Shown in pieces: positions 8,570-49,358 of a DNA stretch of 64,000 bases (its first letter is position 1; each line of letters begins with the position of its first letter). The notes below the pieces were generated by a model that saw only the letters and a list, made by a program, of their open reading frames with translations, made no database searches and was not told the origin of the DNA. The position numbers and the translations under genes were made by a program. This stretch comes from a virus: UHGV virus genome UHGV-1370141; one strand, given 5' to 3'.

Positions 8570-9049
8570 TTATTTTTTCTTCTTAGCGCGTGATGGCTTA
8601 GCTGGCGGTGTTTCAACAGCCGGTTTACGTGCAACACGCACTGTAAAACCACCAACCCAGGTCAGACACTCAGGACGGAAGAAAATACCGTGTTCGATTG
8701 CGCTACCGTCCAACGGTAACTCACCAACCTGTTCTACCCATACATCGTCTTCTGTAAGGGTTAGGCTATACTGTTCGTTAATTACGGGCAGTAGGTCAGC
8801 GGTAGTCGTTGCAGACTCCACTAACAGTTTCGGTAATACGTTCAGGAAATACAAACCTGCGTCAATGCGGTTATACTGGAACGTTTGTTCGTTAGTGTAA
8901 CCGAGATTCTTAATTGACGCAACTGTGATTTCGGTATTGTACGTACCGGTGGTTACGACCGGGTCACCCAGCGTGACTTTGGTGGTGTCGAACTCAGCGT
9001 CTGGGTTAGCCTTTTTAATAAGGTCGAAGATAGTTTCTTGATTGGTCAT
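8570..9049 (-). CDS. hypothetical protein
   Basis: 159-aa ORF in the minus-strand block, lysine-rich C-terminus; no motif. Confidence 0.5.
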   Translation of the reverse strand: MTNQETIFDLIKKANPDAEFDTTKVTLGDPVVTTGTYNTEITVASIKNLGYTNEQTFQYNRIDAGLYFLNVLPKLLVESATTTADLLPVINEQYSLTLTEDDVWVEQVGELPLDGSAIEHGIFFRPECLTWVGGFTVRVARKPAVETPPAKPSRAKKKK

Positions 9050-9062
9050 TACTGTAATCCTC

Positions 9063-9911
9063 TTAATCTAAGAATCCCGGTAAGACCGGATTAGTCTGCG
9101 CTAATTCAATCTTCGACTTCGGACGATCGGTGCCGTTAAAGTGGATTAACAGATTACCGGTCAGGTTAGAACACAGCGGGCTGAGCGTCAGCACCAACAC
9201 ACGCGTGAACTTCGTATTTGCGCCTTCGTAACCTGCGGTTGGACCATCGTAAATAATCTTCGCACCATACAGGTTGTTAGCCGCGTTCTTAGGTACACTT
9301 ACCCATTTCTCATCAACGACGTTAGCCAGTTTAGTGGCTAACTCAGCCAGGTCGACGGTGTCGTTGATAGTAATCGGGTCAAGGTAATCTTTTTCTGCGG
9401 TGAAATCAATCGGGTGAGAATAAACCGCAGCGTTACCTTTCTTAGTAGACGGATACTCTACCAGATTCTCTAATTGAGTAACTGGTAACAGTTCAGTCAG
9501 GTCAATAGGATCACGCAGCGTAAGTGTTACTACACCGCACCACTCGTAAGATTTCTCGTTAGCGGTAAGCTGATGGGTTTCACCTTCAACTTTTGCGTCA
9601 ACGATATCCGAGGGTAAAATATTTAGGTTGTATTTTGCGTTAATCGCATTAAGCAAATCCGATGCGGTTACCACACTGTCGTTACCGAACACCAACTCAC
9701 CGGTTAGGTAGTCAGGTAAATTACGACGGTGGTAAGTCACGGTTAAAGTAGTAGACTCATCGCCTTTGAGTTTAGAGGTCAGAACCACCTGGGTATCAAC
9801 CCCAGTACCGGTAGGTTCTCCGATATCAACATCACTGAAAGTCAACGGTGGACTAATATTGTTTTCAGTGTTGATGAGTTTTAGCAGTTTCTGTTTTGAC
9901 GTAAGAGACAT
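9063..9911 (-). CDS. hypothetical protein
   Basis: 282-aa ORF, tightly spaced with the downstream gene; no motif. Confidence 0.5.
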   Translation of the reverse strand: MSLTSKQKLLKLINTENNISPPLTFSDVDIGEPTGTGVDTQVVLTSKLKGDESTTLTVTYHRRNLPDYLTGELVFGNDSVVTASDLLNAINAKYNLNILPSDIVDAKVEGETHQLTANEKSYEWCGVVTLTLRDPIDLTELLPVTQLENLVEYPSTKKGNAAVYSHPIDFTAEKDYLDPITINDTVDLAELATKLANVVDEKWVSVPKNAANNLYGAKIIYDGPTAGYEGANTKFTRVLVLTLSPLCSNLTGNLLIHFNGTDRPKSKIELAQTNPVLPGFLD

Positions 9912-10044
9912 CGCGTTAACTCACAGTAAGTAAAAAGGTTTAAGAGGTCGTTTTACATCCCTCAGCCAGCATAGGAATAGTCGGGTAGGGTGTAAGTAAA
10001 GCGGTGTCAAAATAACAAAAAAGAAAAGGGAAAGAAAATTAATT

Positions 10045-13228: not shown

Positions 13229-13258
13229 GGTATATGCTCCTAAAATGGTTTTAGTTAA

Positions 13259-13299
13259 GTGAGAGCTTTCGTACTCTCACCTAAGTAATATATATCTGA
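13259..13299 (-). promoter_or_regulatory. conserved promoter-like motif plus 5' hairpin (copy 1)
   Basis: Hairpin gtgagag..ctctcac followed by ctaagtaatatatatctga, upstream of the gene starting at 13228; same architecture recurs at 16799-16844 and 37721-37769. Confidence 0.5.
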
Positions 13300-13310
13300 A
13301 AATATTTTAA

Positions 13311-13649
13311 TTAAAACCCAGCAATAAAACTGCCTAATGAAAGACGCTGTAAGTATTTTGGCTTACGTGCCAGGTAACAGTTCTTAGGATTACCTATCGC
13401 CATCTGTGCAACCGCACGTTCTAAACGCGGTGCTTCTAAGATAGCACGATAGTTCCCTTCGTAATGCATTAACCATGCACACTCTTCAACAAAACGTTTT
13501 GCTTCTCGGTATTCTAACGTACGAATACGTTTCTTACCACGATACAAAACCACATCACCATTACTACGAAATACAACCGTTTCACGATTCATTGATTTTA
13601 CCCCATAATTCTCGCCGTAAAACTTGTTTATACATATCGACCTGAGCAC
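13311..13649 (-). CDS. hypothetical protein
   Basis: 112-aa ORF; true start may be the internal ATG at 13592 (MNRETVV..), which reduces overlap with the upstream gene. Confidence 0.4.
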   Translation of the reverse strand: MLRSICINKFYGENYGVKSMNRETVVFRSNGDVVLYRGKKRIRTLEYREAKRFVEECAWLMHYEGNYRAILEAPRLERAVAQMAIGNPKNCYLARKPKYLQRLSLGSFIAGF

Positions 13650-16844: not shown

Positions 16845-16857
16845 AAAAAATAAAAAA

Positions 16858-16884
16858 GGTAGTAGGGGCTAAGCCCCTACTACC
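16858..16884 (-). terminator. rho-independent terminator
   Basis: ggtagtagggg-ctaa-gcccctactacc with a T-run following on the minus strand, directly after the stop of 16891..17511. Confidence 0.65.
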
Positions 16885-16890
16885 TAAAAT

Positions 16891-17511
16891 TTATTTCATT
16901 CCGTTCTGAGAAAGTGTTGTCCCTGCAAGATGCTTAATAACGATCTTGACAGGCAAATTACTATTCTCGTACTGTACTTCGGTTTCAGACAAATCGGTGA
17001 TATCGACAACTTTAGAAGGTACTTTCGCTAAGACAACCCGAATGGTGTGGGTTATCGTACTGGCTGTGGTCTTTGTATTACTAATGTAGAAGTACGCATC
17101 AATAATACCGCCGTCTTCTGCCAGATAAACCAATTTATTTTCCAACAGACACTGGGTATAAATTGACACTCCAGATAATTGCGAAATCCCCAGTCTATTA
17201 TTAACGTCAACTGTTGTTTTGCAGATTACCGCACCACCTGTCAACGTTTTTTCTACCACCATATTTCCCGATAAGGTTTTTGCATCCATTTTTGGTACAA
17301 TCGGATGAGTGCCGTCAACAAACAACCCATCGCTGTTAGACTTAAGGATGTTATTCGCCGACGGACTCACTGTAACCTCGCCACCCCCTAATTTCTCAAT
17401 CGGGAGTTGGTATTCAGTTTGTTCCTTAGACGCTAAGACTACTACACCCGTGATGTCTTCTGAAAGTGTCTCCAGTTCATGAATGCGCACCTTTCCTACC
17501 AGTTCAGCCAT
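16891..17511 (-). CDS. putative short tail fiber/receptor-binding protein with conserved N-terminal anchor domain
   Basis: N-terminus MAELVGKVRIHELETLSEDITGVVVLASKEQTEYQLPIEKL matches the N-termini of the long tail fiber (23767) and of 26851..27312. Confidence 0.55.
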   Translation of the reverse strand: MAELVGKVRIHELETLSEDITGVVVLASKEQTEYQLPIEKLGGGEVTVSPSANNILKSNSDGLFVDGTHPIVPKMDAKTLSGNMVVEKTLTGGAVICKTTVDVNNRLGISQLSGVSIYTQCLLENKLVYLAEDGGIIDAYFYISNTKTTASTITHTIRVVLAKVPSKVVDITDLSETEVQYENSNLPVKIVIKHLAGTTLSQNGMK

Positions 17512-18026
17512 TAGTGGCCTCCGAATGTTAAGACACGGTTATCTGCGGTAACGATTAAATCGTTGTCTTTTACTACAGCGGCTTCTTCATCGTTACCGAA
17601 AACCAGAACGGAGAATTGGCCTTTATAACCTAACGAGTTGGGTGAAACCTGTAACGTTACAGCGTCTTTCCCTACGGTAAATGATTCGTCGGTAAGATCG
17701 TCGGGTTGTAAATTACAACCACAAGCCGCGTTAATTCCGTCGATTAGATCGTGTGCGGTAAAGCCATTACCGGAAACCTTTACCAGAATAGGTTGCTGGT
17801 TTAACCACCGCTCTGCGGTTAAACGGTTGTAATAAATCTGTAACGTTCTGTTGTCCGGACGTTTTATCTTTACAACAGCAGTGGTGTCACGATCCATTTC
17901 GTTACTGGTCTTTACGTCGCTGACTTCAACCTCGTTCTCTTGCAGGTCGAGCTGGAGGTCATGGTTAACCAGTGAAATAACCATGTTAAGTGAAGTTAAC
18001 GACAAATCTGGCGTGAATTGTTCCAC
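17511..18026 (-). CDS. hypothetical protein (paralog of 27278..27841), tail fiber-associated
   Basis: N-terminal ..PDLSLTSLNMVISLVNHDLQLDL.. aligns with ..PDLSLTSAELVVALINHDNGLQL.. of 27278..27841; GTG start preceded by AGGAGG. Confidence 0.5.
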   Translation of the reverse strand: MEQFTPDLSLTSLNMVISLVNHDLQLDLQENEVEVSDVKTSNEMDRDTTAVVKIKRPDNRTLQIYYNRLTAERWLNQQPILVKVSGNGFTAHDLIDGINAACGCNLQPDDLTDESFTVGKDAVTLQVSPNSLGYKGQFSVLVFGNDEEAAVVKDNDLIVTADNRVLTFGGH

Positions 18027-18081
18027 GTATGGTTACCTCCTATGATTGGGGAGACGTAAAATGTTGGCTAAAAACATTTCA

Positions 18082-18090
18082 CCCCCCCCC
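18082..18090. repeat. homopolymeric C9/G9 tract in conserved TCACC-Cn-GATT context
   Basis: Nine consecutive C about 55 nt upstream of the start of 17511..18026; same context as the C10 tract at 5344-5353. Confidence 0.6.
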
Positions 18091-18124
18091 GATTACGTTT
18101 TCAAGCACACTCGCTTGAAAATTA

Positions 18125-18631
18125 TTAACTGATTTTGAAATCTCTTAACGTACCAGTTGATCTCATCACGTTTTGAAAAGCAGTGCTGATGTTATTAGTC
18201 CAGTAGTAATGCTGTCCGTTAATAACCTGCTGATAGGTCAGTGCGCAAGTGTTACCGCCTAGATTTACAGTGATGTTAGAGGCCCTGCCGCCTTGTAAGT
18301 AAACCGCTAAACTAGGCCTTGCGTTGCCAACTACCGTCGTTAACTGTAATTCGATACCTACTAAAGTTCCCACCCCGCAGTTACCCGCGTTTTGAATGGT
18401 CCCCTGATTTTTCTGGTTTAACGGCCAATTTGGTCCTACTGCGCCCCATTTCTTACCTAAAGAATCTCTATATGCGGCAGTTGCAATTTTACAGCCCATA
18501 GATCTTCCCACCATTTGACTCATCATAAAAGGTCTACTCAATCCTAATTTACTACCCGCAGCGCTCATCCACTGTTCGCCCGTTTCATTCCTAGCTGAAG
18601 ATCCGACCCATCCTGACGCTACCCCCCCCAT
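18125..18631 (-). CDS. Gly-rich tail fiber-associated protein (paralog of 18648..19286)
   Basis: N-terminus MGGVASGWVGSSARNETGEQWMSAAGSKLG aligns with the 212-aa neighbour; a G8 homopolymer spans the start codon and codons 2-3. Confidence 0.5.
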   Translation of the reverse strand: MGGVASGWVGSSARNETGEQWMSAAGSKLGLSRPFMMSQMVGRSMGCKIATAAYRDSLGKKWGAVGPNWPLNQKNQGTIQNAGNCGVGTLVGIELQLTTVVGNARPSLAVYLQGGRASNITVNLGGNTCALTYQQVINGQHYYWTNNISTAFQNVMRSTGTLRDFKIS

Positions 18632-18647
18632 CTACCCTCCTTTTTAA

Positions 18648-19286
18648 TTAAACACGTGAACCGTATATTGCACCTACTGCGTCCCATCTTGGCGCATTAC
18701 CAGTAACAGCTTTACCAGCTGCTCCGCCGTTATATTCTGTACCGTTACCATGAGTATTACATCTTCCTCCAGCAGCACCGACATTACCACCCGAACCGCC
18801 TGTATATGCACTAAGAGACCCCTCACCAACAGATCCTCTACCAGGAGCGGAAATAGTACCAGCAGCTGCACCGGAACTCATATGAGAGGAAGACCCACCA
18901 GCACCGCCTGGCGAGTTAGAACCACCGTTGCCTCCTCTGCCGTATACTGTAACCCCAGGATTGATGATGAGTGTAATATACGAATTTGGAAGATTGCTAG
19001 GGAATTCTAAACAAGGAACCCCGCTACTATAAGACACTAAATCCCCTGTAATGGTCACAACGACAGCAGTAGAGCCTAAAGAACGTAAATAGTTAATAAG
19101 AGTATCCTTATTATAGCTATGGTTAGCACCAATAGAATAATGGACCTCTTTTGATTTTCCCGCCAATTGCGACATCCAGCCTGGAACCGGCACACCAAGT
19201 GTGCGCATCGCGCCAGACATCCATTCGTTACCAGCTTCAGCTTTTGCTGAAGAACCAATCCAACCACCTACGCCGACAACTGCCAC
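18648..19286 (-). CDS. Gly-rich tail fiber-associated protein
   Basis: 212 aa with long Gly/Ser/Ala tracts (GGNGGSNSPGGAGGSS...); GTG start overlapping the tail fiber stop by 1 nt. Confidence 0.5.
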   Translation of the reverse strand: MAVVGVGGWIGSSAKAEAGNEWMSGAMRTLGVPVPGWMSQLAGKSKEVHYSIGANHSYNKDTLINYLRSLGSTAVVVTITGDLVSYSSGVPCLEFPSNLPNSYITLIINPGVTVYGRGGNGGSNSPGGAGGSSSHMSSGAAAGTISAPGRGSVGEGSLSAYTGGSGGNVGAAGGRCNTHGNGTEYNGGAAGKAVTGNAPRWDAVGAIYGSRV

Positions 19287-22200
19287 TAGGATCTCCCTTT
19301 GATTTCGTTAACCTCTTGACGCAACGCTTTCATACCCTCTACTAACAGCGCAATAACGCCATTGTAGTTTAGACGTAAACGTTTTTCGCCTGAAATGGCA
19401 TCATCATCCTCAGACACAAGTTCAGGTAACGCTTCTAATGCGTCTTGAGCAATTAGACCTACAGAAGTTTGCCAACCGTCATCCGGATGCTGAATTTCGT
19501 ACAAATAACCAGTTAGTAACTCTAACCGATCCAAAGCCTTATCCAGCTTCACCAGATTACGTTTGTTACGACGGTCAGAACGAATCTGTACGTCGTTAAA
19601 CGAACCGTTACCGCTGCCAGTAACGTTATGACCAAAGGTTACTTGGCCATTAGCGTTATTAAAATACAACGGACGTAGTCCGTTCCAGGAACCCGTTGCA
19701 GCTTGTCCGGCGTCGGTTACTAAGAAATAGGTATTGGCACCATCGTTACGTAACATAAAGCCGTAGTTGCCGTAAGCGATTCGAAAATCAGGGTACTTAG
19801 TGACCAATTTACCGTTAACGGTTAAATCGCCACCTATAGTACCGCCCCCTGACGGTAACGCACCGATGTCACCAGCGTTAGGTTTGTTGTGTGTGCTGTA
19901 AATCAGATAGACGGTACCGTCTGTTAGTCCTGCGGGTTTATTAGCCGTATAGCTTGGCGATGTGTGAATCGTTACGTTGGCATTACTAGTGTAGTCCCAC
20001 TGAATATTAACACCGGTGGCGTAATTACCTATTTCAACATAAATATCGTAAGTGTCACCAGATGTATTCACCCATGCAAAATTAGTGAAGCCGACTGAGG
20101 TCAGTCGCCATAACGCACCAGTAATACCTTTTGGATTCCCATTTCCTGCACGCAGAACCAGCTCAGAGATACCTGCTTGATGCGGGGAACCAACGTTAAA
20201 CCCTGCACCACCAATCAGGCTTATGTAAACCACGGAACTGGCTTGTGGCATCGTTACAGTTGCTAGTTTGAACCATCCGGCACCACCATTAAAAGACACA
20301 GTTGTTGTGTTCGCGGCACCAACATTTCGTAAGAATTTTCTCTTATCTGGAATATCGGCACCGTTCTGTTTCTTCTGCAATGACCCACCGGCCAATTCTA
20401 CAGTTTGGCCAAGATTTAAACTTTCAGCCGTTATTTCGATGTTTTTAGTGCCGTCAAACGCAATACCGTTGATGGTTCTTGCAGTTTGCAACTTTGTTGC
20501 AGTGGCCGCGTTTCCGGTGGTCGACTGATTACCCGTTTGGTTTACTCCAGGAAGATTAACGTCTTTCGTCCCATCGAAAACCACACCACCGATCCTACGT
20601 CCTGTTTGTAACTTGGTAGCGGTTGCTGCATTACCTGTCGTATTCTGGTTGCCTTGCTGGTTAACCCCCGGTAAATTGATATCCCCAGTACCGTCAAAGG
20701 TAACGCCGCCGATTCTGCGAGCGGTTTTCAGTTTCGTCGCGGTAGCGGCGTTGCCGGTAGTATCTTGATTACCTGTGGTATTTACGCCAGGAATACTGTC
20801 ACGGGCAGTATAAACTTGTGCCCAATCTGACCACGGCGCATCTGCCGTATCACGTCGACTACGAATATAAACTGGCGCGTGCGCACCACTCGTGCCCGAC
20901 CAACCAATTAACAACTCGCCTTCGCCTAGCGCAGCAGAACCACCCAAATGCAGTAAGTTACCATAAGCGGTCGGATAACCGTTATTGTAAACTTCGTACA
21001 TCTGAATACCAGGCGTACCTTTGTTTGAACCAGTCAGTGCAGTAACACGTCCACGTCCTACCAACGTGTTGATATTGATGTCTCTAGACCCATCAAATTT
21101 CACACCGTTGATGTTTCGAGCCGTTTGTAATTTGGTTGCGGTTCCCGCGTTCCCAGAGGTGTTTTGATTACCTTGTTGGTTAACACCTGGGAGGTTAACG
21201 TCGCCGCTACCGTCGAAGGCGACCCCACCAATTCTACGTGCCGTCTTTAATTTAGTGGCGGTTGAAGCATTGCCTGTTAACTCACCTGCTAACCCTTTTG
21301 CAAAGGTCTGTTTTTCTGCCCAGGTGTGCGCTGCGTTCAATACAGGCATCTGGCGTGGCGTAATTGTTCGACTACCTTTCTCACCAGCGATACGAACAGC
21401 AAAGAAGCGATAGTTGGCAGTAGACACCGTACTACGCCAAACCAACATGCTCCGACCGGTGCCGGTGTCATCAGACGGCCCTACAAGGATGTTAACTAAG
21501 TTACCGTCAATCACACCCCAATCCATTCCCGCAGGAATATTTTTCATGGTGTTCAACGGTGACGTTAACATCTGACCGGGAACGAAGTCGTAGGTTTGCC
21601 AGTCTAACGGGTCAACCTTAGCAGCTACACCACCAATGCCTAAAACTAACGGAAGTGAATACGAGGTGAAAACCTCTCGCCACCCACTCCAAATGTTACC
21701 CGTACGGATACGTTGGAATTTACGACCTTTAGTTTCTCTACCCGTGCCGTATGTGGTATAATTCTGTTCGACCCCTGTACCGTCTAAGCGTAAGGTAACT
21801 TCACAAACGCCTACCACGGTTTCGCTAGAAGAACCGATAAGTGGACCGTTAGTTGCCTCACCAGTGACACTGAAACGACCCGGTTTAACGAGATCGTTAA
21901 AATTGGCTTTAAAGAAAGCACCGTCAGTCTGATAACCAACCTGAATCCAATCTTCCCATTGTGGGTTTGATGAATCCCACGTTGCAGTCAAACCACGGAC
22001 ATACATTGTGCCACGACGCGTAGTGTATCGCTGCAACCGTCCGAAAAGACCACCTTCCATTACTTCTAGTACGCCTTGCGCGTTACCGCCTTCTTCAGGG
22101 TAATGCCGGTCGAACACCGCTAACGAACTGGACGAGTTCCGCCAGTTACCCATATGCTCAGCGCCACCCAGAGAGTTCAAGTCTATAGAGGTAGACAGTG

Positions 22201-23767
22201 GGCGAACACCAGTGGTTACCATTCTCCACGGTGACCAGGGTCCATTAGTTCCGTTCCACACACCTGACAACATACGGTTGTACACGTTACCATTACGACA
22301 GGTAAAACGTTGCGCGCCACTGTAGTTGCCCGCTTTATACACTTCCAGATAACCGACTGCACCGTCTTCTGGGAAGTGTTTTGCCATCGACGCATTGGTT
22401 GATGTCGACTTAGACCACGTTCCTGTGTAATTAGCATCTGGAGCAAATGTGTTAATATCAGCATCTACAGGCATTTCGCCACGGAAACGCAGGTAGGTAT
22501 CAGGAGATAGGCCGATGTTGCGAGCAAAAGTTTCTTTATCTGGGATATCAGCGCCGTTAGAGTTTTTCTGTAACGCACCATTCGCTTTATCGACGGTAGT
22601 TTTCAAACCCAGGAAGTTAATGATATCCGCCGTCGACCCTTTCGCTAACAAATCGCGCGCAGTCGAGGTGAAATCCGCTAATCCCACCCGATTACTACCG
22701 GTAAAGTAAGGGAGTTTGTTTGCAGCGGTGGTGACTGCGGCAATCGCTGTCAGTAACGGACTTAACGGCTGTTTACCCGCGAGTTGGTTCGTTATCGTTG
22801 TCGCAAAGTTAGGATCGTTTCCTAACGCGGCTGCAATTTCTGATAACGTATCTAACGTCTCGGGTGAAGAGTCCACTAATTCAGCAATCGCTTGCCGTAC
22901 CCATGCCGTCGTTGAGACTGTCGTGTCGTTAGAATCCGCAGCAGGAGTCGGAGCTTTTACTACGCCAGTAAACGTCGGCGAGTGACGGTTTGCTTTTAAC
23001 TGCAAATCATCATTTAACTGCTTAACCGTTGACGGTGTAGCCGCTTCCGTAACCGAGTCACTGGTTAAGGTATTATTAAGTTTAACGATACCTTTACTGG
23101 ACGTTGTTGCATCAACGTTACCTTTTGCAGCGATTTCCTCTGCACGCTTAGCGGCTGCCTCAGAACGCGTTGCCGCATTCTCTGCGGTTTCTTTGTCTGA
23201 GGTAACTTGCGTTGCTGTAGCCTCTACAGAGGCTTTTGACGACTCTACTGACGCGACAGCTTCGTTAACTGCCGTAAGCGACTGTTCTACTTGACCGGCT
23301 TGTGTGGCAACAGTTTCTGCTTTCTTCGTAACGGTAGTCACCGCTTGTGTGACGTTGGCCTCGCTTGCCGCTACCGCTTGTGCTTTCTCATTAACGGACA
23401 CAACCTGGGTATCTACCGCCGTTTTCGCGGCTAACACTTCAGTGTGTTTTGTACCGACCTCAGTTGCTTTTTCGGTTACAGTTTGCGCTTGTTGAGCAAC
23501 CGTAGCCGCAACGGTGTCAGTTTGTTGTTTTGCTGTTTCTGCTAAATTCTTTGCTTGTGTAGCCTGAGTTGCAGCTTCTTGTGATTGTGTTGCTGCTGCT
23601 TGTGCATCAGACACCGCATTACGCACGGTGTCAATATCTGCAACGATCTCACGGACTGGTAACTTATAATCTTTCTCATCTTTGGAGAAAAGTAAAACAC
23701 CTTCACCGATATCCCCGGTGTATGGACGTAAGTCGTGTAAACGAATTTTCTTTACCGCTTTAGCCAT
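19286..23767 (-). CDS. long tail fiber protein with C-terminal intramolecular chaperone (peptidase S74-like) domain
   Basis: 1493 aa; Ala/Thr/Gln-rich N-terminal region after a conserved anchor; five tandem copies of a ~33-aa GN..TATKL.TAR.I.GV.FDG fibre repeat; C-terminus ..DRRNKRNLVKLDKALDRLELLTGYLYE..GLIAQD..NYNGVIALLVEG.. resembles the self-cleaving chaperone of tail fibers. Confidence 0.85.
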   Translation of the reverse strand: MAKAVKKIRLHDLRPYTGDIGEGVLLFSKDEKDYKLPVREIVADIDTVRNAVSDAQAAATQSQEAATQATQAKNLAETAKQQTDTVAATVAQQAQTVTEKATEVGTKHTEVLAAKTAVDTQVVSVNEKAQAVAASEANVTQAVTTVTKKAETVATQAGQVEQSLTAVNEAVASVESSKASVEATATQVTSDKETAENAATRSEAAAKRAEEIAAKGNVDATTSSKGIVKLNNTLTSDSVTEAATPSTVKQLNDDLQLKANRHSPTFTGVVKAPTPAADSNDTTVSTTAWVRQAIAELVDSSPETLDTLSEIAAALGNDPNFATTITNQLAGKQPLSPLLTAIAAVTTAANKLPYFTGSNRVGLADFTSTARDLLAKGSTADIINFLGLKTTVDKANGALQKNSNGADIPDKETFARNIGLSPDTYLRFRGEMPVDADINTFAPDANYTGTWSKSTSTNASMAKHFPEDGAVGYLEVYKAGNYSGAQRFTCRNGNVYNRMLSGVWNGTNGPWSPWRMVTTGVRPLSTSIDLNSLGGAEHMGNWRNSSSSLAVFDRHYPEEGGNAQGVLEVMEGGLFGRLQRYTTRRGTMYVRGLTATWDSSNPQWEDWIQVGYQTDGAFFKANFNDLVKPGRFSVTGEATNGPLIGSSSETVVGVCEVTLRLDGTGVEQNYTTYGTGRETKGRKFQRIRTGNIWSGWREVFTSYSLPLVLGIGGVAAKVDPLDWQTYDFVPGQMLTSPLNTMKNIPAGMDWGVIDGNLVNILVGPSDDTGTGRSMLVWRSTVSTANYRFFAVRIAGEKGSRTITPRQMPVLNAAHTWAEKQTFAKGLAGELTGNASTATKLKTARRIGGVAFDGSGDVNLPGVNQQGNQNTSGNAGTATKLQTARNINGVKFDGSRDININTLVGRGRVTALTGSNKGTPGIQMYEVYNNGYPTAYGNLLHLGGSAALGEGELLIGWSGTSGAHAPVYIRSRRDTADAPWSDWAQVYTARDSIPGVNTTGNQDTTGNAATATKLKTARRIGGVTFDGTGDINLPGVNQQGNQNTTGNAATATKLQTGRRIGGVVFDGTKDVNLPGVNQTGNQSTTGNAATATKLQTARTINGIAFDGTKNIEITAESLNLGQTVELAGGSLQKKQNGADIPDKRKFLRNVGAANTTTVSFNGGAGWFKLATVTMPQASSVVYISLIGGAGFNVGSPHQAGISELVLRAGNGNPKGITGALWRLTSVGFTNFAWVNTSGDTYDIYVEIGNYATGVNIQWDYTSNANVTIHTSPSYTANKPAGLTDGTVYLIYSTHNKPNAGDIGALPSGGGTIGGDLTVNGKLVTKYPDFRIAYGNYGFMLRNDGANTYFLVTDAGQAATGSWNGLRPLYFNNANGQVTFGHNVTGSGNGSFNDVQIRSDRRNKRNLVKLDKALDRLELLTGYLYEIQHPDDGWQTSVGLIAQDALEALPELVSEDDDAISGEKRLRLNYNGVIALLVEGMKALRQEVNEIKGRS
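20450..21300 (-). repeat. tandem in-frame tail-fibre repeats (about 99 nt unit; 3 + 2 copies), approximate bounds
   Basis: Repeated nucleotide blocks encoding GNQ.T.GNA.TATKLQTAR.I.GV.FDG..D.NLPGVNQ within the tail fiber gene. Confidence 0.55.
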
Positions 23768-23800
23768 GATATTTAATTCTCTATCGGGAGCTAAAAGATC

Positions 23801-23824
23801 TGGGGGAGGTAAGCACCTCCCCCA
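23801..23824 (-). other. intergenic G5/C5 hairpin
   Basis: tgggggaggt-aagc-acctccccca between the 1001-aa gene stop and the tail fiber start; no clear T-run. Confidence 0.35.
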
Positions 23825-23844
23825 ACATTTTTATAAGCGGGTTA

Positions 23845-26800
23845 TTATTGCTCCGGTTTTAATGGAACATCTTCTACCGTTAACGTAACGTCTAAGGCCG
23901 CTTGACTGTGGTCAGTAATCGCTAAGTCACGATAAATATTAGCATTGGCTCCGTAGGTTTTATAAGTAACGTAGAGACCTAACGCACGTAGCACTTCCCC
24001 AGTGTAGAACCCATAAGCCATTCCGTTATCAGAAGACTCTCGAGCGGCTGGAGACCACGCTCCATTAATCGGCTTATTCGGAATTGAGGTAATCGTAAAC
24101 CCTTCACCTAACTCCTTAATTGCCGCATTAACCACTTTATCGTAGTTCGGATTCGTTGCACCGGCGAGTAATGCCCAGCAACACCCTGCTAACCACAACC
24201 CACACATATGTGCGGTGAAGTCGTTTTCCACCCAAACAGCTTTATCCGGTGCTGTAGGGAACTCGTTAGGAGTGTGGCCATTAAACCGATCCACAAACCC
24301 ACCTAGCCAATTCACCCAGTTGTCAATATAGCTTGTTAACGCCTCGGGAACGTCTTTACCTCGCAGTTTCAGTTCGTACCAACAGCGACATGCGGCATGA
24401 AACGCACGAGGCTGATACCCTGCCCAAGGATGGTCATCACCCCAATGGAACGTCGTCCAGGTATCCGCTTCTCCGTAGCTGTAGTTGTCCCAACGGTTCC
24501 AGATATAAGCTGCACAACCAGGTCCTAATTCCCCAATTTGCTGTTGGTAAGCCAACTGCGAATCGTACAGGAATTGAATCTGGTTATCTAACCACAGCTT
24601 ATACCGGTCGTCTTTGTGGATACTGTACATAAACGGATACTGATAACCCGGATAAGGCATCCCGTGCCAAGCACCTAACTGTTCCGAACCTTCTAAGTAG
24701 CTGTTCGTGAACGGTATCGTACCCGGACAGTACGCTAACGAATCCAATCGGTAATCTACAATCGTACAATCACCCACTTTTGCATCAAACTCTGCACCAC
24801 CGCGTAAGGCAATACGGAAGGTTAAAATATAACCATCGTCTTTATTAAAGACCGGTGGAACATCGTTAACACAATAGTAAGCAAAGTGCGCATGGTCAAC
24901 CGTAGAGTCAGGAAGAATCGTGACCTGATCCACCTTATCGAAATTCGGTGCTGAAGGTTTAGGGTCAGCGTCTGTGTGGTCTGGCTGATAACCGGAAAGT
25001 GTGGCTTCATCTGGATTCAACGTTACCTGACGCCATTCGTTGTTTGTGTTGGGTAACATCCACCACCAACGCCAGTTATCACTGTCGACTAAACGCAAGT
25101 TAAAATCTGCGTCTGCACGGTAAACAATAGAAACGGGTTTTACCTTCTCTTCAGCGGTTAACCAAAACCCGATAATAAACCCGGCACTGTCATCAGGAAA
25201 TTCAGCTTCTACCACGGTACCCGCGCGACCATCGTAAATGCTATCCTCAAAACGTTCTTCCCATGTACAACCACCATAGTCCGAACACGCACGGGCTTCA
25301 GCTATCAGGTAGTCTCCCCCTTCTGGGGTGGTAATACGGGAAAGTTGGCCTAAGTCAATATCGTACTGTTTAACGGTATTTACCGTAGACCGAGGTAAGG
25401 TTAAACCGTACCAGTTTACTTCCTCGGTATCAGCTTTCGCAGGGTTAATGTTCACCATCGCTTTACAGTAGACAGGATCGCCATTCTTACAAACTCCACC
25501 GTACGTGACACGAAGTTTGGAGTCTTTGTTAATCCTGAATCGAACCGCTTGCTGCTCCATAAAGTGTTGTACCGCTTCAGGCGCATGGATGGTAATGTCT
25601 CCATTCTCATCACGGCCGTAGGTAACACTTACGGTGTCCGGGTAATTGAAGTCGTACGAAATGCCATCCGTAAACGGTGTTTCCGCAGCGGTAGAACGAC
25701 GGAAGAATTTATCTACCGCATCAATATACGTGTACTCGTGTGCTGTGTAGAAAGCACAGTCTAACGCTTGTTTGTATTTCTCTTCACCTGTTATACGCCA
25801 CAGCAAATAACAGGCGTCGATAAACCACAGTTCAGCATCAGCGGCGTTACCGTATTGGTTTTTCGACCCTAAGAACGGTGTGTGGACCGGACGGTTGTGC
25901 CACGGCTCATTACGTTTAAATTCGTAACCGCCGTGTTCGACGGGAAGTTTTACCGCGTAGTTAATTAAATAGACACCGTTTAACTGTGTGTCTTTTAACT
26001 GTACGGTACCTTTATCAGCGTCTGCTAATCCCGTCTCAATAATTTCACTATCCTGGATTTTGTTACCCGTCCAGGCAATTATCCAGTCAACGTCGTATTT
26101 AGGAGCTTTTGTTGCAGACCCGCCCCAAAGCGGGGTGTAACCTGTAGCATTATTTAGCAGTGTTGGCCAATCGACCCAAGCGATGCTTTCGTAAGGCTTA
26201 TCAGGATTAGTAATAACGTGAGTTAAAACGTCTTCCCAATTAATCGACCCTTCTTTGTCTTCCTTGATAATCTGTACATCTGCGTTAATCGCGGCCCAGG
26301 CAGGGTGGCCACGATGTGCAAACGTACAGATATCCAAATACTCTCCCCAGAAAGGTGCACCGTGCGGTATCTTACATTGGCCATTTGTAAACCTTACAGG
26401 AACACATTTATACCCGCCGTTGGTAGGTTCCGTAGGGTGAATAGGATAGTGTGCTAATACCGGTTCTTTCCCGTTTACTAACCAGTTACAAATCCGACGC
26501 TGGGGTGTTGTCGGAATAGGCTGTCCGGCGTAGAAGTACGTGTTGTACGCATCCCAGGCGTGTTTCGCAGCATCTAACCATCTTTCGTCTTTTGTTGCGA
26601 TATACATGTGGCAATAACCGATAATGTGTAACGACTGACCCTCGGTCGTTGCGTCACCATTCGGTTGGTATTCCGCCATGGTATCAGCGATGAAATGACG
26701 GTTATTCGACAGAACACCTTCTTCGTTTTGAATATAGTGTTCGTTGTGCGCGTCGTGAGTCGTTCCCGTATTCCGGGTAACGAAGGATTGGTGTCCGTAA

Positions 26801-26850
26801 GCTAACGATAACGCGTAGCTAATCGCGTGACGCTGAAAATGTTTTCTCAT
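23845..26850 (-). CDS. putative tailspike/depolymerase-like receptor-binding protein (catalytic body lacking its own anchor)
   Basis: 1001 aa, Trp/Tyr-rich, located between anchor-domain genes and the tail fiber; its ATG directly follows, in frame, the TAA of the upstream anchor gene. Confidence 0.5.
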   Translation of the reverse strand: MRKHFQRHAISYALSLAYGHQSFVTRNTGTTHDAHNEHYIQNEEGVLSNNRHFIADTMAEYQPNGDATTEGQSLHIIGYCHMYIATKDERWLDAAKHAWDAYNTYFYAGQPIPTTPQRRICNWLVNGKEPVLAHYPIHPTEPTNGGYKCVPVRFTNGQCKIPHGAPFWGEYLDICTFAHRGHPAWAAINADVQIIKEDKEGSINWEDVLTHVITNPDKPYESIAWVDWPTLLNNATGYTPLWGGSATKAPKYDVDWIIAWTGNKIQDSEIIETGLADADKGTVQLKDTQLNGVYLINYAVKLPVEHGGYEFKRNEPWHNRPVHTPFLGSKNQYGNAADAELWFIDACYLLWRITGEEKYKQALDCAFYTAHEYTYIDAVDKFFRRSTAAETPFTDGISYDFNYPDTVSVTYGRDENGDITIHAPEAVQHFMEQQAVRFRINKDSKLRVTYGGVCKNGDPVYCKAMVNINPAKADTEEVNWYGLTLPRSTVNTVKQYDIDLGQLSRITTPEGGDYLIAEARACSDYGGCTWEERFEDSIYDGRAGTVVEAEFPDDSAGFIIGFWLTAEEKVKPVSIVYRADADFNLRLVDSDNWRWWWMLPNTNNEWRQVTLNPDEATLSGYQPDHTDADPKPSAPNFDKVDQVTILPDSTVDHAHFAYYCVNDVPPVFNKDDGYILTFRIALRGGAEFDAKVGDCTIVDYRLDSLAYCPGTIPFTNSYLEGSEQLGAWHGMPYPGYQYPFMYSIHKDDRYKLWLDNQIQFLYDSQLAYQQQIGELGPGCAAYIWNRWDNYSYGEADTWTTFHWGDDHPWAGYQPRAFHAACRCWYELKLRGKDVPEALTSYIDNWVNWLGGFVDRFNGHTPNEFPTAPDKAVWVENDFTAHMCGLWLAGCCWALLAGATNPNYDKVVNAAIKELGEGFTITSIPNKPINGAWSPAARESSDNGMAYGFYTGEVLRALGLYVTYKTYGANANIYRDLAITDHSQAALDVTLTVEDVPLKPEQ

Positions 26851-27312
26851 TTAGTAACCCGCTGCAAGAAGAGAACCTTTCCAGGTGGCACCCCCATCAA
26901 GGGTATAAAGCGACAGAGTGTCTTCCGCATTTGCCGCGTAGGATAAAACCGGTTGTGCACCGTGAGGCCATTTAACGTTTTCAGGCCAGGTTACTTTATT
27001 CGCCCCTGTTCCTTGCTTAATCGTTAGCATTACTTCGAAACGGGTATTTTCTGCAACGTTGGTAAGGGCTGCGAACGTCACTGTAGTGTTAGGATCGTTT
27101 AACACCAGAATAATGTCAGTGCTGGTATTGAAATCCAACGTGGCGGCATTATTCGAACCGTTAACCGTGGTGACTGTCGCAACCGGGGCTAACTTATCAA
27201 CATCAATTTTATATTCTTTATTGTCTTTGCTATACAGCAGTACCCCGCCTTGGGGTGTGCCTGCGTAGCTTTCGAGCTCATGGAGTCTCGTCTTCTTCAG
27301 TGCTGTCGCCAT
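26851..27312 (-). CDS. tail fiber N-terminal anchor domain protein
   Basis: MATALKKTRLHELESYAGTPQGGVLLYSKDNKEYKIDVDKL matches the N-termini of the tail fiber and of 16891..17511; start placed at the ATG at 27312 rather than the ORF-track start at 27363. Confidence 0.55.
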   Translation of the reverse strand: MATALKKTRLHELESYAGTPQGGVLLYSKDNKEYKIDVDKLAPVATVTTVNGSNNAATLDFNTSTDIILVLNDPNTTVTFAALTNVAENTRFEVMLTIKQGTGANKVTWPENVKWPHGAQPVLSYAANAEDTLSLYTLDGGATWKGSLLAAGY

Positions 27313-27841
27313 CTGGAACCTCAAATGTAAGAACGGCATCGTCACCAATACAGAAGATTGCATCTTCTTCGTTTGCTAATGCCCGTTCGGTTGTATCAAA
27401 CAACGTCACCATAAACGCGTTCATCCACGCAGGAGAATCGTCGGCAACGTTAACGGAAATGGGATCGTTACCTAAAGTGATATCTGAAGCACGTAAATCC
27501 TCGGGTTGTAAGTTCGTTCCGCAGAATTCATTTACAACACTAAGAATGTCACGAACGTTGTCTTCAGTACCGTCTAACGAAATCAGAATGGGTTCATACG
27601 TTAATACTTCATCTGCGTCGAGTCTGTCGTAGTAAACCACAACAGACGCGCCATCCGGTTTTCTGATTTTACTGATTTCGGTAATGGTGTTACGACGCGA
27701 AGTTGTTGGGGATGGGTTTGTTACAGTTCCGCTAATACGGATTTCGTTTAGTGTAAGCTGTAACCCGTTATCATGATTGATTAAAGCGACCACTAGCTCT
27801 GCTGAGGTCAGACTCAAATCAGGTACGTATGGTGTGGCCAC
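27278..27841 (-). CDS. hypothetical protein (paralog of 17511..18026), tail fiber-associated
   Basis: 187 aa; paralogy to 17511..18026; acidic C-terminus. Confidence 0.5.
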   Translation of the reverse strand: MATPYVPDLSLTSAELVVALINHDNGLQLTLNEIRISGTVTNPSPTTSRRNTITEISKIRKPDGASVVVYYDRLDADEVLTYEPILISLDGTEDNVRDILSVVNEFCGTNLQPEDLRASDITLGNDPISVNVADDSPAWMNAFMVTLFDTTERALANEEDAIFCIGDDAVLTFEVPDGDSTEEDETP

Positions 27842-27872
27842 TTAACCCTCCGAGATCAAAAAAAATAAAACA

Positions 27873-27900
27873 CCTACCGCCCATAGAATCGGGCGGTAGG
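27873..27900 (-). terminator. rho-independent terminator
   Basis: cctaccgccc-atagaatc-gggcggtagg preceded on the plus strand by an A-run (T-run on minus), after the gene ending at 27968. Confidence 0.55.
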
Positions 27901-27967
27901 AGACTATTCTGTAGTTAAAAATCAAGAACGATTAGTGATTTTTTTCGGAAGATTTCGATAGAATTTT

Positions 27968-28342
27968 TTATTCGGTTAATTCTCCACACAACACAACGTC
28001 GATACCAAACATCATTCCCACTTCTTGAAGTTTGTTCGCCAGTAAGTGACGATGACAAAACTTACCTGCGGGACAATAACACATCAAAACCAAATCATCG
28101 TGTCTGAGTAATGACACTAAAACTTCGGCGTTGGTATCTAACAGTCGTTCGAGCTTATATAAATACTTTATCGTGTACTCACGTTCAGCGACAGTGTCCT
28201 TGGCAGAGTTTTTATACGCCATTAAGAAATCCCAGTCTGGGGCGAGTTCCTTTCTCCCCGATTTGACTGTAATATCCACTGCGTGAAATCCTTTCTGCTT
28301 AGCTAACCGCCACTTAGCGAGTTGTAACGTCCAGATACGCAT
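27968..28342 (-). CDS. hypothetical protein (DUF488-like Cys motif)
   Basis: 124 aa with CYCPAGKFCHRH, reminiscent of the DUF488 CxC...CHR signature; family assignment from memory. Confidence 0.4.
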   Translation of the reverse strand: MRIWTLQLAKWRLAKQKGFHAVDITVKSGRKELAPDWDFLMAYKNSAKDTVAEREYTIKYLYKLERLLDTNAEVLVSLLRHDDLVLMCYCPAGKFCHRHLLANKLQEVGMMFGIDVVLCGELTE

Positions 28343-28539
28343 TAGGAACGGGTCTGCGATTCAGCCATCAGCGCACAACTTTTCACAGCCTGTGCATGAA
28401 GTTCTGTACCCGGTGTGTAATCCTTTATACAATCCTGATACAATTCGCTTTTCTTTTCTAAAACACGATTGTCACACTCGGCACTTGCTAGTGCCCCTGC
28501 GATAAGGATAAAAACTAGAATCGGCAACCAAATTTTCAT
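28342..28539 (-). CDS. small secreted protein
   Basis: 65 aa; N-terminal signal-peptide-like MKIWLPILVFILIAGALASA; three Cys. Confidence 0.4.
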   Translation of the reverse strand: MKIWLPILVFILIAGALASAECDNRVLEKKSELYQDCIKDYTPGTELHAQAVKSCALMAESQTRS

Positions 28540-48811: not shown

Positions 48812-49358
48812 TGATTAATTCTCCAGGGCGGAACCCGTCCAGCGCAAGTTTCGTCACGAGAGACGCCAACGTACGTGGTGTGGGGTCAGTAAATACGACC
48901 GGAATCGTTCCTTTAAAAGATAAGTGATTCGGGACTAAGCGAACATCATAAGAATCGAGTTCCTCACTGATAGGCTCGATCATAATGTCGTCTTCAGTCA
49001 AATCAATACCGGTCTGGGCAACGATATAGTCTGCTAGTTCTTGGCTGCTGGTTACTTCGCCTTTCGGTACTGTAACCGGTTCGTCAGCTAAGAACGTTGC
49101 CAGGTCAACACGGGTTAAGATGAATTCCTGGTTCCCTGTAACACCGTTTTTAAAGTCGGCCGCCACTTTCGATTCCAGTCCGTAACGACGGGCTTCGTCT
49201 TTCGTCAGCGGTTGCACACCTTTATCGTTAAAATCGATGTTATCAGTGGTATAGGATACCCCGAAAACGTAGTTAATACGATCTACCAGAATTTGTTTCG
49301 GAGTTTTCGTTAAGTCGACGCGATATGCCATGGTTTTCTCACTTAGGTAGCTGGTCAA
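48804..49358 (-). CDS. hypothetical protein
   Basis: 184-aa ORF. Confidence 0.5.
   Translation of the reverse strand: MTSYLSEKTMAYRVDLTKTPKQILVDRINYVFGVSYTTDNIDFNDKGVQPLTKDEARRYGLESKVAADFKNGVTGNQEFILTRVDLATFLADEPVTVPKGEVTSSQELADYIVAQTGIDLTEDDIMIEPISEELDSYDVRLVPNHLSFKGTIPVVFTDPTPRTLASLVTKLALDGFRPGELINV

What the first reader, a model, noticed from the sequence alone, without database searches (positions are those of the whole stretch)
16891..27841. Duplicated receptor-binding modules sharing a common N-terminal anchor domain
Three proteins (16891..17511, 19286..23767, 26851..27312) begin with the same ~40-aa domain (M-A-x-x-K-K-x-R-L-H-E/D-L ... G-V-L-L-x-S-K-D-x-K-x-Y-K). Each anchor gene is preceded by a paralogous ~170-190-aa gene (17511..18026 and 27278..27841), and the long fibre is followed by two Gly-rich paralogs. 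This looks like modular exchange of receptor-binding tips on a shared attachment domain, implying several alternative host receptors.
Basis: seen in the sequence. Interest (0 to 1): 0.6.

Follow-up and report, generated by a model that had tools for sequence, protein, structure and literature searches.

The report
Shared anchor on three phage fibres
A giant gut phage related to Salmonella phage SPN3US puts the same 45-residue N-terminal module on three unrelated tail-fibre proteins, one of them a T-even-style long fibre with two alternative tip adhesins: a familiar plug-and-play design, but with a previously undescribed anchor.

Summary
Three minus-strand genes (16891-17511, 19286-23767, 26851-27312) begin with the same ~45-aa module. 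Similarity is z = 15-21 against shuffles. There are exactly three copies in the window, and the proteins share nothing after the module.

The window comes from an uncultivated SPN3US-like (Seoulvirus-related, Chimalliviridae) jumbo phage. Cultured relatives carry the module once, in the conserved trio DUF7941 / small fibre / ~1000-aa glycosidase-like tail protein (SPN3US gp122-124).

This lineage adds five genes:
- a 1493-aa mosaic long fibre with a C-terminal intramolecular chaperone and an S16/T2-type tip;
- two gp38-type adhesins that share only the Gp38_N attachment domain;
- a second DUF7941 gene;
- a 206-aa anchored protein.

Close relatives carry other cargo behind the same anchor, including a SASA esterase and an Ig/propeller protein. 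In podophage ISAO8 the anchor is replaced by a T7 gp17 tail-binding domain on the same small-fibre/glycosidase pair. Both facts point to the module being a virion-attachment element.

DUF7941 folds like phiKZ gp127, a peripheral baseplate protein. Whether it is the socket for the anchor is untested.

Verdict: a new member of the known class of modular, anchored multi-receptor-binding-protein systems. Interest is moderate.

The parts
27278..27841 (-). DUF7941_a, 187 aa. Orthologue of SPN3US gp122. Its end overlaps the start of the small-fibre gene by 35 nt.
26851..27312 (-). Small anchored fibre or adaptor, 153 aa. Orthologue of SPN3US gp123. Anchor = residues 1-45; beta-sandwich = residues 47-150.
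   Evidence: phrog_9017. 46% identical to SPN3US gp123. In the AF2 model residues 1-15 are disordered, a hairpin spans 24-37 and the beta-sandwich has pLDDT above 90.
27178..27312 (-). Anchor module, copy 1 (small-fibre codons 1-45).
23845..26850 (-). Glycosidase-like tail protein, 1001 aa. Orthologue of SPN3US gp124. It has no anchor of its own; its ATG directly follows the small-fibre stop codon.
   Evidence: phrog_2871 at 1458 bits. 71-77% identical to Seoulvirus-type 'tail-associated protein' and 42% to ISAO8 gp39. The Pfam GH76 hit is sub-threshold.
19286..23767 (-). Anchored long tail fibre, 1493 aa. Order of parts: anchor (1-45), Ala/Thr/Gln-rich shaft, Phage_fiber_2, repeat region, Gp34_trimer, S16 gp37-like tip, Peptidase_S74 chaperone.
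   Evidence: Pfam and PHROG hits. Residues 1338-1491 match PDB 6f45_A, the S16 gp37 tip, at E 1.8e-13. Relatives show a mosaic conservation pattern.
23633..23767 (-). Anchor module, copy 2 (long-fibre codons 1-45).
   Evidence: It is 93-100% identical across variant loci whose fibre tips are only 24-38% identical.
19289..19579 (-). C-terminal intramolecular chaperone of the long fibre (residues 1397-1493, starting at the SDRRNK motif). Predicted to be cut off after trimerisation.
   Evidence: Pfam Peptidase_S74, residues 1397-1451, E 3e-10. Motif position. Cleavage is inferred from the family, not shown here.
18648..19286 (-). gp38-type adhesin 1, 212 aa: Gp38_N domain plus a Gly-rich receptor-recognition domain. 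It carries a 48-aa in-frame deletion relative to alleles in close relatives. Its GTG start overlaps the long-fibre stop codon.
   Evidence: Pfam GP38 (E 5e-45) and Gp38_N. PDB 6f45_D, S16 gp38, at E 2e-30. The last 261 nt are 85-92% identical to Krischvirus gp38. Deletion shown.
18125..18631 (-). gp38-type adhesin 2, 168 aa: the same Gp38_N attachment domain with an unrelated C-terminal domain.
   Evidence: Pfam Gp38_N at E 1e-18 and phrog_1121 'tail fiber adhesin'. 56-60% identical to the adhesins of Stx phages and of phage CMS-2020a.
17511..18026 (-). DUF7941_b, 171 aa. Paralogue of DUF7941_a. Its stop codon overlaps the ATG of the next gene.
   Evidence: Pfam DUF7941 at 62 bits. 35.5% identical to DUF7941_a. 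Its orthologues directly precede the variable anchored gene in L015 and L017.
16891..17511 (-). Anchored 206-aa protein: anchor (1-45) plus a ~160-aa C-terminal domain of unknown specificity.
   Evidence: phrog_33169, C-terminal part only. In cultured phages only the anchor part finds matches. The gene is mostly deleted in L006 and L007 and replaced by other anchored cargo in L015 and L017.
17377..17511 (-). Anchor module, copy 3 (codons 1-45 of the 206-aa protein).

Best explanation
This region is the accessory receptor-binding-protein cluster of an uncultivated SPN3US-like jumbo phage of enterobacteria.

The ~45-residue N-terminal module is a flexible peptide followed by a beta-hairpin. I read it as a lineage-specific virion-attachment element that plugs three unrelated proteins into the tail or peripheral baseplate.

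- Cargo 1 is a ~100-aa beta-sandwich. It most likely serves as the docking adaptor for the 1001-aa glycosidase-like tail protein encoded immediately downstream. This is the ancestral gp123/gp124 module.
- Cargo 2 is a mosaic long fibre. It trimerises with the help of its C-terminal S74 chaperone, sheds that chaperone, and is then capped at an S16/T2-type tip by a gp38 adhesin. Two different adhesins share the same Gp38_N attachment domain, so either could occupy a fibre tip.
- Cargo 3 is a small domain of unknown specificity.

The virion would therefore carry several independent host-recognition devices. New ones are acquired by recombination that joins foreign distal parts to the resident anchor.

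Shown here: the homologies, the domain boundaries, the natural cassette exchange among relatives, and (from the literature) virion incorporation of the SPN3US orthologues. Inferred: the physical docking, the chaperone cleavage, adhesin alternation, and receptor identities.
For: 1. The anchor is real, position-locked and selected at the protein level.
2. A profile search of 1.84 billion representative proteins finds it at residues 1-45 of proteins 133-1494 aa long with unrelated C-termini. These include a SASA esterase with DUF6645 and an Ig/beta-propeller protein.
3. In relatives, the slot behind DUF7941_b holds a 206-aa, a 706-aa (SASA) or a 709-aa anchored protein. L017 has an extra anchored 273-aa protein and lacks the small-fibre and glycosidase genes.
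4. Cultured Seoulvirus-type phages (SPN3US, EC001, pEa_SNUABM_29, Proteus phage 7) have one copy and only the three-gene core.
5. ISAO8 gp38 is a Phage_T7_tail N-domain joined to the small-fibre C-domain (34% identity). It is followed by a homologue of the 1001-aa protein (42% identity). The N-terminal part therefore changes with virion type.
6. The small-fibre C-domain and the 1001-aa protein were found in 523 and 528 phage records respectively, with nearly the same counts per genus. They are adjacent in the five genomes where I compared the coordinates of both matches: SPN3US, Asesino, JohannJBalmer, pEC-M2929-1AR.1 and ISAO8.
7. SPN3US gp123 and gp124 were detected in virions at similar abundance and are not flagged as head proteins (PMC5694885, Supplementary Table 1).
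8. The long-fibre tip and gp38_1 match the S16 gp37-gp38 complex, PDB 6F45. The gp38 N-terminus is the part that binds gp37 (PMC12892980).
9. Among 88-97% identical relatives the anchor is 93-100% conserved, while the fibre tip is only 24-38% identical in most relatives (L003, L005, L006) and mosaic, up to 81-90% in some segments, in L007 and L017.
Against: - No structure or interaction data exist for the anchor, and its binding partner is unknown.
- gp38_1 carries a 48-aa deletion in its Gly-rich domain and is a rare allele, so it may be impaired.
- The two adhesins share only ~45 residues, whereas gp37-gp38 compatibility in T2 and PP01 was restored by swapping the N-terminal 113 residues.
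- SPN3US gp122, the DUF7941 orthologue, was not detected in virions.
- No virion data exist for this phage itself.
Confidence: 0.72

Rival explanations
1. The anchor does not bind a core baseplate protein. [quoted passage not shown] DUF7941 proteins are proposed to sit on the peripheral baseplate and to polymerise head-to-tail. They would then be the universal socket for the anchored fibres. This refines the best explanation rather than contradicting it.
For: - DUF7941 and anchor genes form translationally coupled pairs twice in the window, and in every relative examined.
- In L017, DUF7941_a sits directly upstream of the long fibre.
Against: - The window and L017 each have three anchors but only two adjacent DUF7941 genes.
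- SPN3US gp122 was not detected in virions, although gp123 was.
- SPN3US paralog family B, which I equate with DUF7941 on the basis of the gp122 orthology and the family members detected in the window, was assigned to the head because its members were detected in a tailless mutant.
- hhalign finds no similarity between the anchor and the DUF7941 C-terminal tail.
- No multimer prediction could be run.
Confidence: 0.3
2. The 45-aa module is not an attachment element. It is an assembly tag, for example a recognition peptide for a chaperone (possibly the non-virion DUF7941 protein) or an N-terminal trimerisation nucleus. Attachment would then be mediated elsewhere.
For: - SPN3US gp122 is absent from virions, as an assembly factor would be.
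- The module is poorly ordered in the monomer model.
- The coupled gene order resembles fibre/chaperone pairs.
Against: - In ISAO8 the equivalent position is occupied by the T7 gp17 N-terminal domain, an established tail-attachment domain.
- The long fibre already carries its own C-terminal chaperone, and relatives add DUF4376 chaperone-like genes downstream of their anchored genes.
- After the anchor the three proteins share no other region that could mediate common attachment.
Confidence: 0.1
3. The five extra genes are recently acquired and partly decaying cargo with little present function. The phage would rely on its gp131-like main fibres and the ancestral gp123/gp124 module.
For: - gp38_1 has a 48-aa deletion.
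- gp38_2 is 5'-truncated in L005.
- The 206-aa gene is mostly deleted in L006 and L007.
Against: - The long fibre, gp38_2, DUF7941_b and the 206-aa protein are intact, and their clusters have 186-339 members on many 220-226 kb contigs.
- The anchor copies are conserved at the protein level while synonymous sites are saturated.
- The pattern of variation is cassette replacement rather than accumulation of stop codons.
Confidence: 0.08

Closest known systems
SPN3US gp122-gp123-gp124 module (Seoulvirus, Chimalliviridae)
   Same: Same gene order and orientation next to the DUF488 gene. The small fibre is 46% identical and the tail protein 71% identical. The anchor is present in gp123. gp123 and gp124 are virion proteins that are not flagged as head proteins.
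   Different: SPN3US and the other cultured relatives examined have a single anchor copy. They lack the long fibre, both gp38 adhesins, the second DUF7941 gene and the 206-aa protein.
T2/S16-type long-tail-fibre tip: gp37 with a C-terminal chaperone plus the gp38 adhesin (PDB 6F45)
   Same: The fibre C-terminus matches S16 gp37, and gp38_1 matches S16 gp38 at E 2e-30. The fibre carries a Peptidase_S74 chaperone. The adhesin gene directly follows the fibre gene. The Gly-rich domain is 85-92% identical at the DNA level to Krischvirus gp38.
   Different: The fibre is a single 1493-aa chain grafted onto a jumbo-phage anchor, not a gp34-gp35-gp36-gp37 assembly. Two adhesin genes with unrelated C-domains lie in tandem. 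gp38_1 lacks 48 residues of the Gly-rich domain.
Two-component receptor-binding module of Yersinia podophage ISAO8 (gp38 fibre plus gp39 glycosyl hydrolase); phi92 gp140 is named in the annotation of the SPFM orthologues
   Same: The C-domain of the small fibre and the ~1000-aa glycosidase-like protein are homologous and adjacent.
   Different: The N-terminal attachment part is a T7 gp17-type domain in ISAO8, and other sequences in other families, rather than the 45-aa anchor. The function of phi92 gp140 is still uncharacterised (PMC13450770).
Branched multi-tailspike systems with conserved N-terminal anchor or adaptor domains (CBA120 TSP1-4, SP6/K1-5, Klebsiella phages). This comparison rests on my own knowledge of those systems.
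   Same: The logic is the same: a conserved N-terminal attachment part, exchangeable distal receptor-binding or enzymatic parts, and several such proteins per virion.
DUF7941 proteins of chimalliviruses (phiKZ gp126/gp127; Goslar gp22/gp23 'fibre cloud')
   Different: These two are short forms, with an N-terminal domain and a ~35-aa tail. They are paired with anchored fibre genes, a pairing that the passages of the Goslar and phiKZ papers I read do not mention. The SPN3US orthologue was not detected in virions.

Membership tests
T2/S16-type gp37-gp38 adhesin system | The adhesin has the N-terminal gp37-attachment domain (Pfam Gp38_N). | tested here: met
   gp38_1 E 3.8e-14 and gp38_2 E 9.6e-19, both above the 25-bit cut-off.
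T2/S16-type gp37-gp38 adhesin system | The adhesin has a C-terminal Gly-rich-motif / hypervariable receptor-recognition domain (Pfam GP38; PGII sandwich). | tested here: inconclusive
   gp38_1 is met: PF05268 E 5e-45 and PDB 6f45_D E 2e-30. It does lack 48 residues present in 94-97% identical alleles. gp38_2 is not met: its C-domain is unrelated.
T2/S16-type gp37-gp38 adhesin system | The fibre distal tip is homologous to gp37 of gp38-bearing phages, has a C-terminal intramolecular chaperone, and the adhesin gene lies immediately downstream. | tested here: met
   Long-fibre residues 1338-1491 match 6f45_A at E 1.8e-13. Peptidase_S74 E 3e-10. The gp38_1 start overlaps the fibre stop codon.
T2/S16-type gp37-gp38 adhesin system | The adhesin binds an outer-membrane porin and sits on the mature fibre tip. 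| not testable with these tools
   This needs adsorption assays, receptor mutants or a virion structure.
SPN3US gp122-124 module (Seoulvirus-type) | Orthology and synteny of the three genes. | tested here: met
   Identities are 45-46% (DUF7941), 46% (small fibre) and 71% (tail protein). Order and neighbours are the same.
SPN3US gp122-124 module (Seoulvirus-type) | The products are incorporated into the tail part of the virion. | not testable with these tools
   Known only for SPN3US: gp123 and gp124 were detected and not flagged as head proteins, while gp122 was not detected (PMC5694885).
DUF7941 (chimallivirus peripheral-baseplate / fibre-cloud proteins) | Pfam PF25613 match above the gathering score. 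| tested here: met
   72 and 62 bits against a cut-off of 27.
DUF7941 (chimallivirus peripheral-baseplate / fibre-cloud proteins) | The fold of the N-terminal domain matches that of phiKZ gp127 in the baseplate. | tested here: met
DUF7941 (chimallivirus peripheral-baseplate / fibre-cloud proteins) | Head-to-tail oligomerisation and association with the baseplate. | not testable with these tools
   No multimer prediction was available. The literature conflicts: the Goslar preprint places these proteins on the baseplate, while the SPN3US tailless-mutant proteomics places them in the head.
Peptidase_S74 intramolecular chaperone | The domain sits at the extreme C-terminus of a trimeric fibre, with a Ser...Lys motif at its start. 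| tested here: met
   PF13884 covers residues 1397-1451, and the SDRRNK motif starts at residue 1397. Autocleavage itself was not tested.
Anchored modular receptor-binding-protein systems (generic) | A conserved N-terminal module at residue 1 combined with unrelated C-terminal modules, both within one genome and across relatives. | tested here: met
Anchored modular receptor-binding-protein systems (generic) | The module physically mediates attachment to the virion. | not testable with these tools
   This is inferred from the ISAO8 domain substitution and from SPN3US proteomics only.

The most novel reading that the evidence does not exclude
The 45-aa anchor is a universal plug that docks by strand addition onto the N-terminal domain of short DUF7941 proteins on the peripheral baseplate of Seoulvirus-type nucleus-forming phages. 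Any protein given this peptide would then be displayed on the virion. In addition, the two tandem gp38-type adhesins compete for the same fibre tip, producing virions with mixed receptor specificities from a single fibre gene.
Probability: 0.2. Interest if true: 0.65.

Novelty: new member of a known kind. Interest (0 to 1): 0.45.

Why it matters
Nucleus-forming jumbo phages are attractive for therapy because their DNA is shielded from many host defences, but how they recognise hosts is poorly understood. A short, defined anchor that nature reuses for a glycosidase adaptor, a porin-targeting long fibre, an esterase and other cargo would be a practical handle for re-targeting these phages.

It also shows that T-even-type fibre tips and gp38 adhesins move into an unrelated virion architecture.

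Proteins of this locus occur on ~220-226 kb contigs in assemblies labelled Salmonella, E. coli, Shigella and Enterobacter. That fits a broad host range served by several receptor-binding devices, although the link is only suggestive.

Tried and rejected
- **Word-indexed homologue search with the 45-aa profile.** It returned only 6 candidates and was uninformative. The exhaustive HMM search replaced it.
- **Weak tblastn hits of the anchor in Felix O1-like phages (E 0.2-0.9).** The hit I examined (phage nataliec) lies at the C-terminal end of a small gene of unknown function, in a run of small hypothetical genes, not at the start of a fibre gene. The other hits have similar scores. Rejected as chance.
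- **Sequence searches of PDB chains.** The small fibre, DUF7941_a, the 1001-aa protein, gp38_2 and the 206-aa protein gave nothing meaningful.
- **hhalign of the anchor profile against the conserved DUF7941 C-terminal tail.** This tested whether the anchor mimics the DUF7941 linker. No similarity: probability 0.1%.
- **Nucleotide-level explanation of the shared N-terminus** (recent duplication or a conserved translation-initiation region). Rejected because third codon positions are at chance identity.
- **Literature search for tandem gp38 adhesins, or gp38 in jumbo phages.** Nothing relevant was found. This is not proof of absence.
- **tRNA scan of the window.** None found.


Full report
**What is in the region.** All genes between 16891 and 27841 lie on the minus strand and are tightly packed, several with overlapping stop and start codons. 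In order of transcription they are:

| Window coordinates | Product |
|---|---|
| 27278-27841 | DUF7941_a, 187 aa |
| 26851-27312 | small fibre, 153 aa |
| 23845-26850 | glycosidase-like tail protein, 1001 aa |
| 19286-23767 | long fibre, 1493 aa |
| 18648-19286 | gp38-type adhesin 1, 212 aa |
| 18125-18631 | gp38-type adhesin 2, 168 aa |
| 17511-18026 | DUF7941_b, 171 aa |
| 16891-17511 | anchored protein, 206 aa |

**Source of the window.** The window also encodes a jumbo-phage major head protein and virion proteins. It aligns at only ~72-75% nucleotide identity to Seoulvirus-type phages such as SPN3US, Asesino and phiEaH2. Seoulvirus belongs to the Chimalliviridae. Window positions 16851-28400 are 100% identical to a metagenome contig. 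Close variants occur on ~225 kb contigs from human gut metagenomes. Cluster members of these proteins (clusters at 90% identity) also occur on 219-226 kb contigs in isolate assemblies labelled Salmonella, E. coli, Shigella and Enterobacter.

**Checking the observation.**
- Residues 1-45 of the small fibre, the long fibre and the 206-aa protein align without gaps.
- Pairwise Smith-Waterman scores of 82-110 compare with about 20 +/- 4 for shuffles (z = 15-21). The remainders of the three proteins show no similarity (z about 0).
- A profile scan of all six-frame ORFs finds exactly three copies, each at the first residue of a called gene.
- Third codon positions are at chance identity, while first and second positions are conserved. 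The copies are therefore old paralogues maintained by selection on the peptide.
- The two DUF7941 genes are clear paralogues. However, the family has three more members in the window, and only two of the three anchor genes have one upstream.
- The two proteins after the long fibre share only the ~45-aa Gp38_N domain.

**The ancestral core.** SPN3US, E. coli phage EC001, Erwinia phage pEa_SNUABM_29 and Proteus phage 7 all carry DUF7941, small fibre and ~1000-aa tail protein at the same position, followed by small non-structural genes. tblastn with the anchor finds one copy per cultured genome, always in the small fibre. In SPN3US these are gp122, gp123 and gp124. Mass spectrometry detected gp123 and gp124 in virions at similar normalised abundance without assigning them to the head. 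gp122 was not detected (PMC5694885).

**Evidence that the N-terminal module is the attachment part.**
- The small-fibre C-domain and the 1001-aa protein were found in 523 and 528 phage records respectively, with nearly the same counts per genus. The records span very different families.
- The two are adjacent in the five genomes where I compared the coordinates of both matches: SPN3US, Asesino, JohannJBalmer, pEC-M2929-1AR.1 and ISAO8.
- In the podophage ISAO8, the small-fibre C-domain (34% identity) is attached to a Phage_T7_tail domain, the established tail-binding domain of T7 gp17. The next gene is 42% identical to the 1001-aa protein.
- The cargo pair is thus conserved while the N-terminal part changes with the type of virion. 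This is what an attachment element should do.
- The AF2 model of the small fibre shows a disordered N-terminal peptide, a hairpin (residues 24-37) and a confident beta-sandwich.
- Fold searches give only weak resemblance to N-terminal adaptor parts of tailspikes, so the adaptor role of the sandwich remains an inference from co-occurrence.

**Evidence for modular exchange.**
- An exhaustive profile search places the anchor at residues 1-45 of 17 protein clusters ranging from 133 to 1494 aa.
- Their C-termini include a sialate-O-acetylesterase-type domain with DUF6645, an Ig/beta-propeller protein and several domains without Pfam matches.
- The genomic contexts show these are alleles of the same locus in sister phages. 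In L015, DUF7941_b is followed by the 706-aa esterase instead of the 206-aa protein.
- L017 has an extra anchored 273-aa protein and a 709-aa anchored protein, each followed by a DUF4376 gene. It lacks the small fibre and the glycosidase gene, so DUF7941_a sits directly before the long fibre.
- L006 and L007 have lost most of the 206-aa gene. L005 has a DUF7941 domain fused to a glycosidase-like region.

**The long fibre and its adhesins.**
- After the anchor come an Ala/Thr/Gln-rich shaft, Phage_fiber_2 and repeat regions, a Gp34_trimer domain, a tip matching S16 gp37 (PDB 6F45 chain A) and a Peptidase_S74 intramolecular chaperone starting at SDRRNK, residue 1397.
- Parts are 70-90% identical to fibres of an E. 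coli phage (CMS-2020a) and of Yersinia phages.
- Among relatives the anchor is 93-100% conserved. The last ~350 residues drop to 24-38% identity in L003, L005 and L006. In L007 and L017 that region is mosaic, with some segments 81-90% identical.
- gp38_1 matches S16 gp38 (E 2e-30) and has the GP38 Gly-rich domain. Its last 261 nt are 85-92% identical to Krischvirus gp38. That domain determines porin specificity in T-even phages (bioRxiv 10.64898/2026.04.02.716166).
- gp38_1 carries a 48-aa in-frame deletion relative to otherwise 94-97% identical alleles, and it belongs to a small cluster.
- gp38_2 has the same attachment domain but a different C-domain. That C-domain is related to the 'tail fiber adhesin' of Stx phages and PEi20-like phages.
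- The tandem pair is conserved in L003, L004, L006, L007, L015 and L016.
- The gp38 N-terminus is the part that binds gp37 (PMC12892980). Two adhesins competing for one tip is therefore a reasonable but untested reading.

**The DUF7941 genes.**
- In phiKZ, gp127 terminates the gp139 band of the star-lobe complex (PMC13250141).
- Against this, the SPN3US study assigned its paralog family B, which I equate with DUF7941 through the gp122 orthology, to the head and did not detect gp122.
- The repeated, translationally coupled pairing of DUF7941 with an anchor gene suggests DUF7941 could be the socket. I could not test this, and a profile comparison gave no hint of mimicry.

**Comparison and verdict.** The system works like other multi-receptor-binding-protein phages that hang exchangeable distal modules on a conserved N-terminal anchor. 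It also contains a bona fide T2/S16-type fibre-tip and adhesin unit. In the literature I could search, three things appear undescribed:
- the 45-aa anchor family itself;
- its threefold use in one genome;
- the grafting of a gp37/gp38-type fibre, with two alternative adhesins, onto a chimallivirus-type phage.

It is a new member of a known kind, of moderate interest.

Noticed in passing
window 18648-19286: gp38_1 has a clean 48-aa in-frame deletion between Gly-rich repeats, relative to 94-97% identical 260-aa alleles in L003 and L005 and to the allele of phage CMS-2020a. Its 90% identity cluster has 9 members, against 328 for gp38_2. It may be a crippled or altered adhesin.
   Followed up: partly
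whole locus; clusters: Proteins of this locus, or members of their clusters at 90% identity, lie on 219-226 kb contigs in many isolate assemblies. The labels include Salmonella enterica (several serovars), E. coli, Shigella flexneri and sonnei, and Enterobacter ludwigii. They also occur in human gut metagenomes. This suggests a jumbo phage carried along with cultured isolates of several genera.
   Followed up: no
window 9066-9920, 8573-9067, 48807-49385 (all minus strand): Three further DUF7941-family ORFs lie outside the fibre cluster. I take this family to correspond to SPN3US 'paralog family B'. Published localisation of the family conflicts: head in SPN3US, peripheral baseplate in phiKZ and Goslar.
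   Followed up: partly
window 13260-13314: A 40-nt intergenic element (13273-13314) is 93-95% identical in SPN3US-like Salmonella phages and in Erwinia phages, although the flanks do not align by megablast. It overlaps a hairpin (13260-13281) and lies about 45 nt upstream of a minus-strand ATG at 13229. It is a candidate conserved terminator/promoter element.
   Followed up: no
L005 19203-19577 and 19674-20462: In one relative, gp38_2 is reduced to a 124-aa ORF lacking the Gp38_N domain. In place of DUF7941_b and the 206-aa gene there is a 643-aa protein with a DUF7941 N-domain, followed by a region that looks like an (alpha/alpha)6 glycosidase.
   Followed up: partly
L017 (394-10690) and L015 (4283-8121): Sister phages carry different anchored cargo: 273 aa and 709 aa, each followed by a DUF4376 chaperone-like gene, and a 706-aa SASA esterase. 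L017 has lost the small-fibre and glycosidase genes altogether.
   Followed up: yes
database proteins P0019 and P0024: Two predicted proteins consist of segments of SPN3US gp123 in permuted order. They are probably assembly or construct artefacts in the public collection.
   Followed up: no
window 2187-3509 (+): A radical-SAM domain protein (phrog_1802) is encoded on the opposite strand, near the left end of the window.
   Followed up: no
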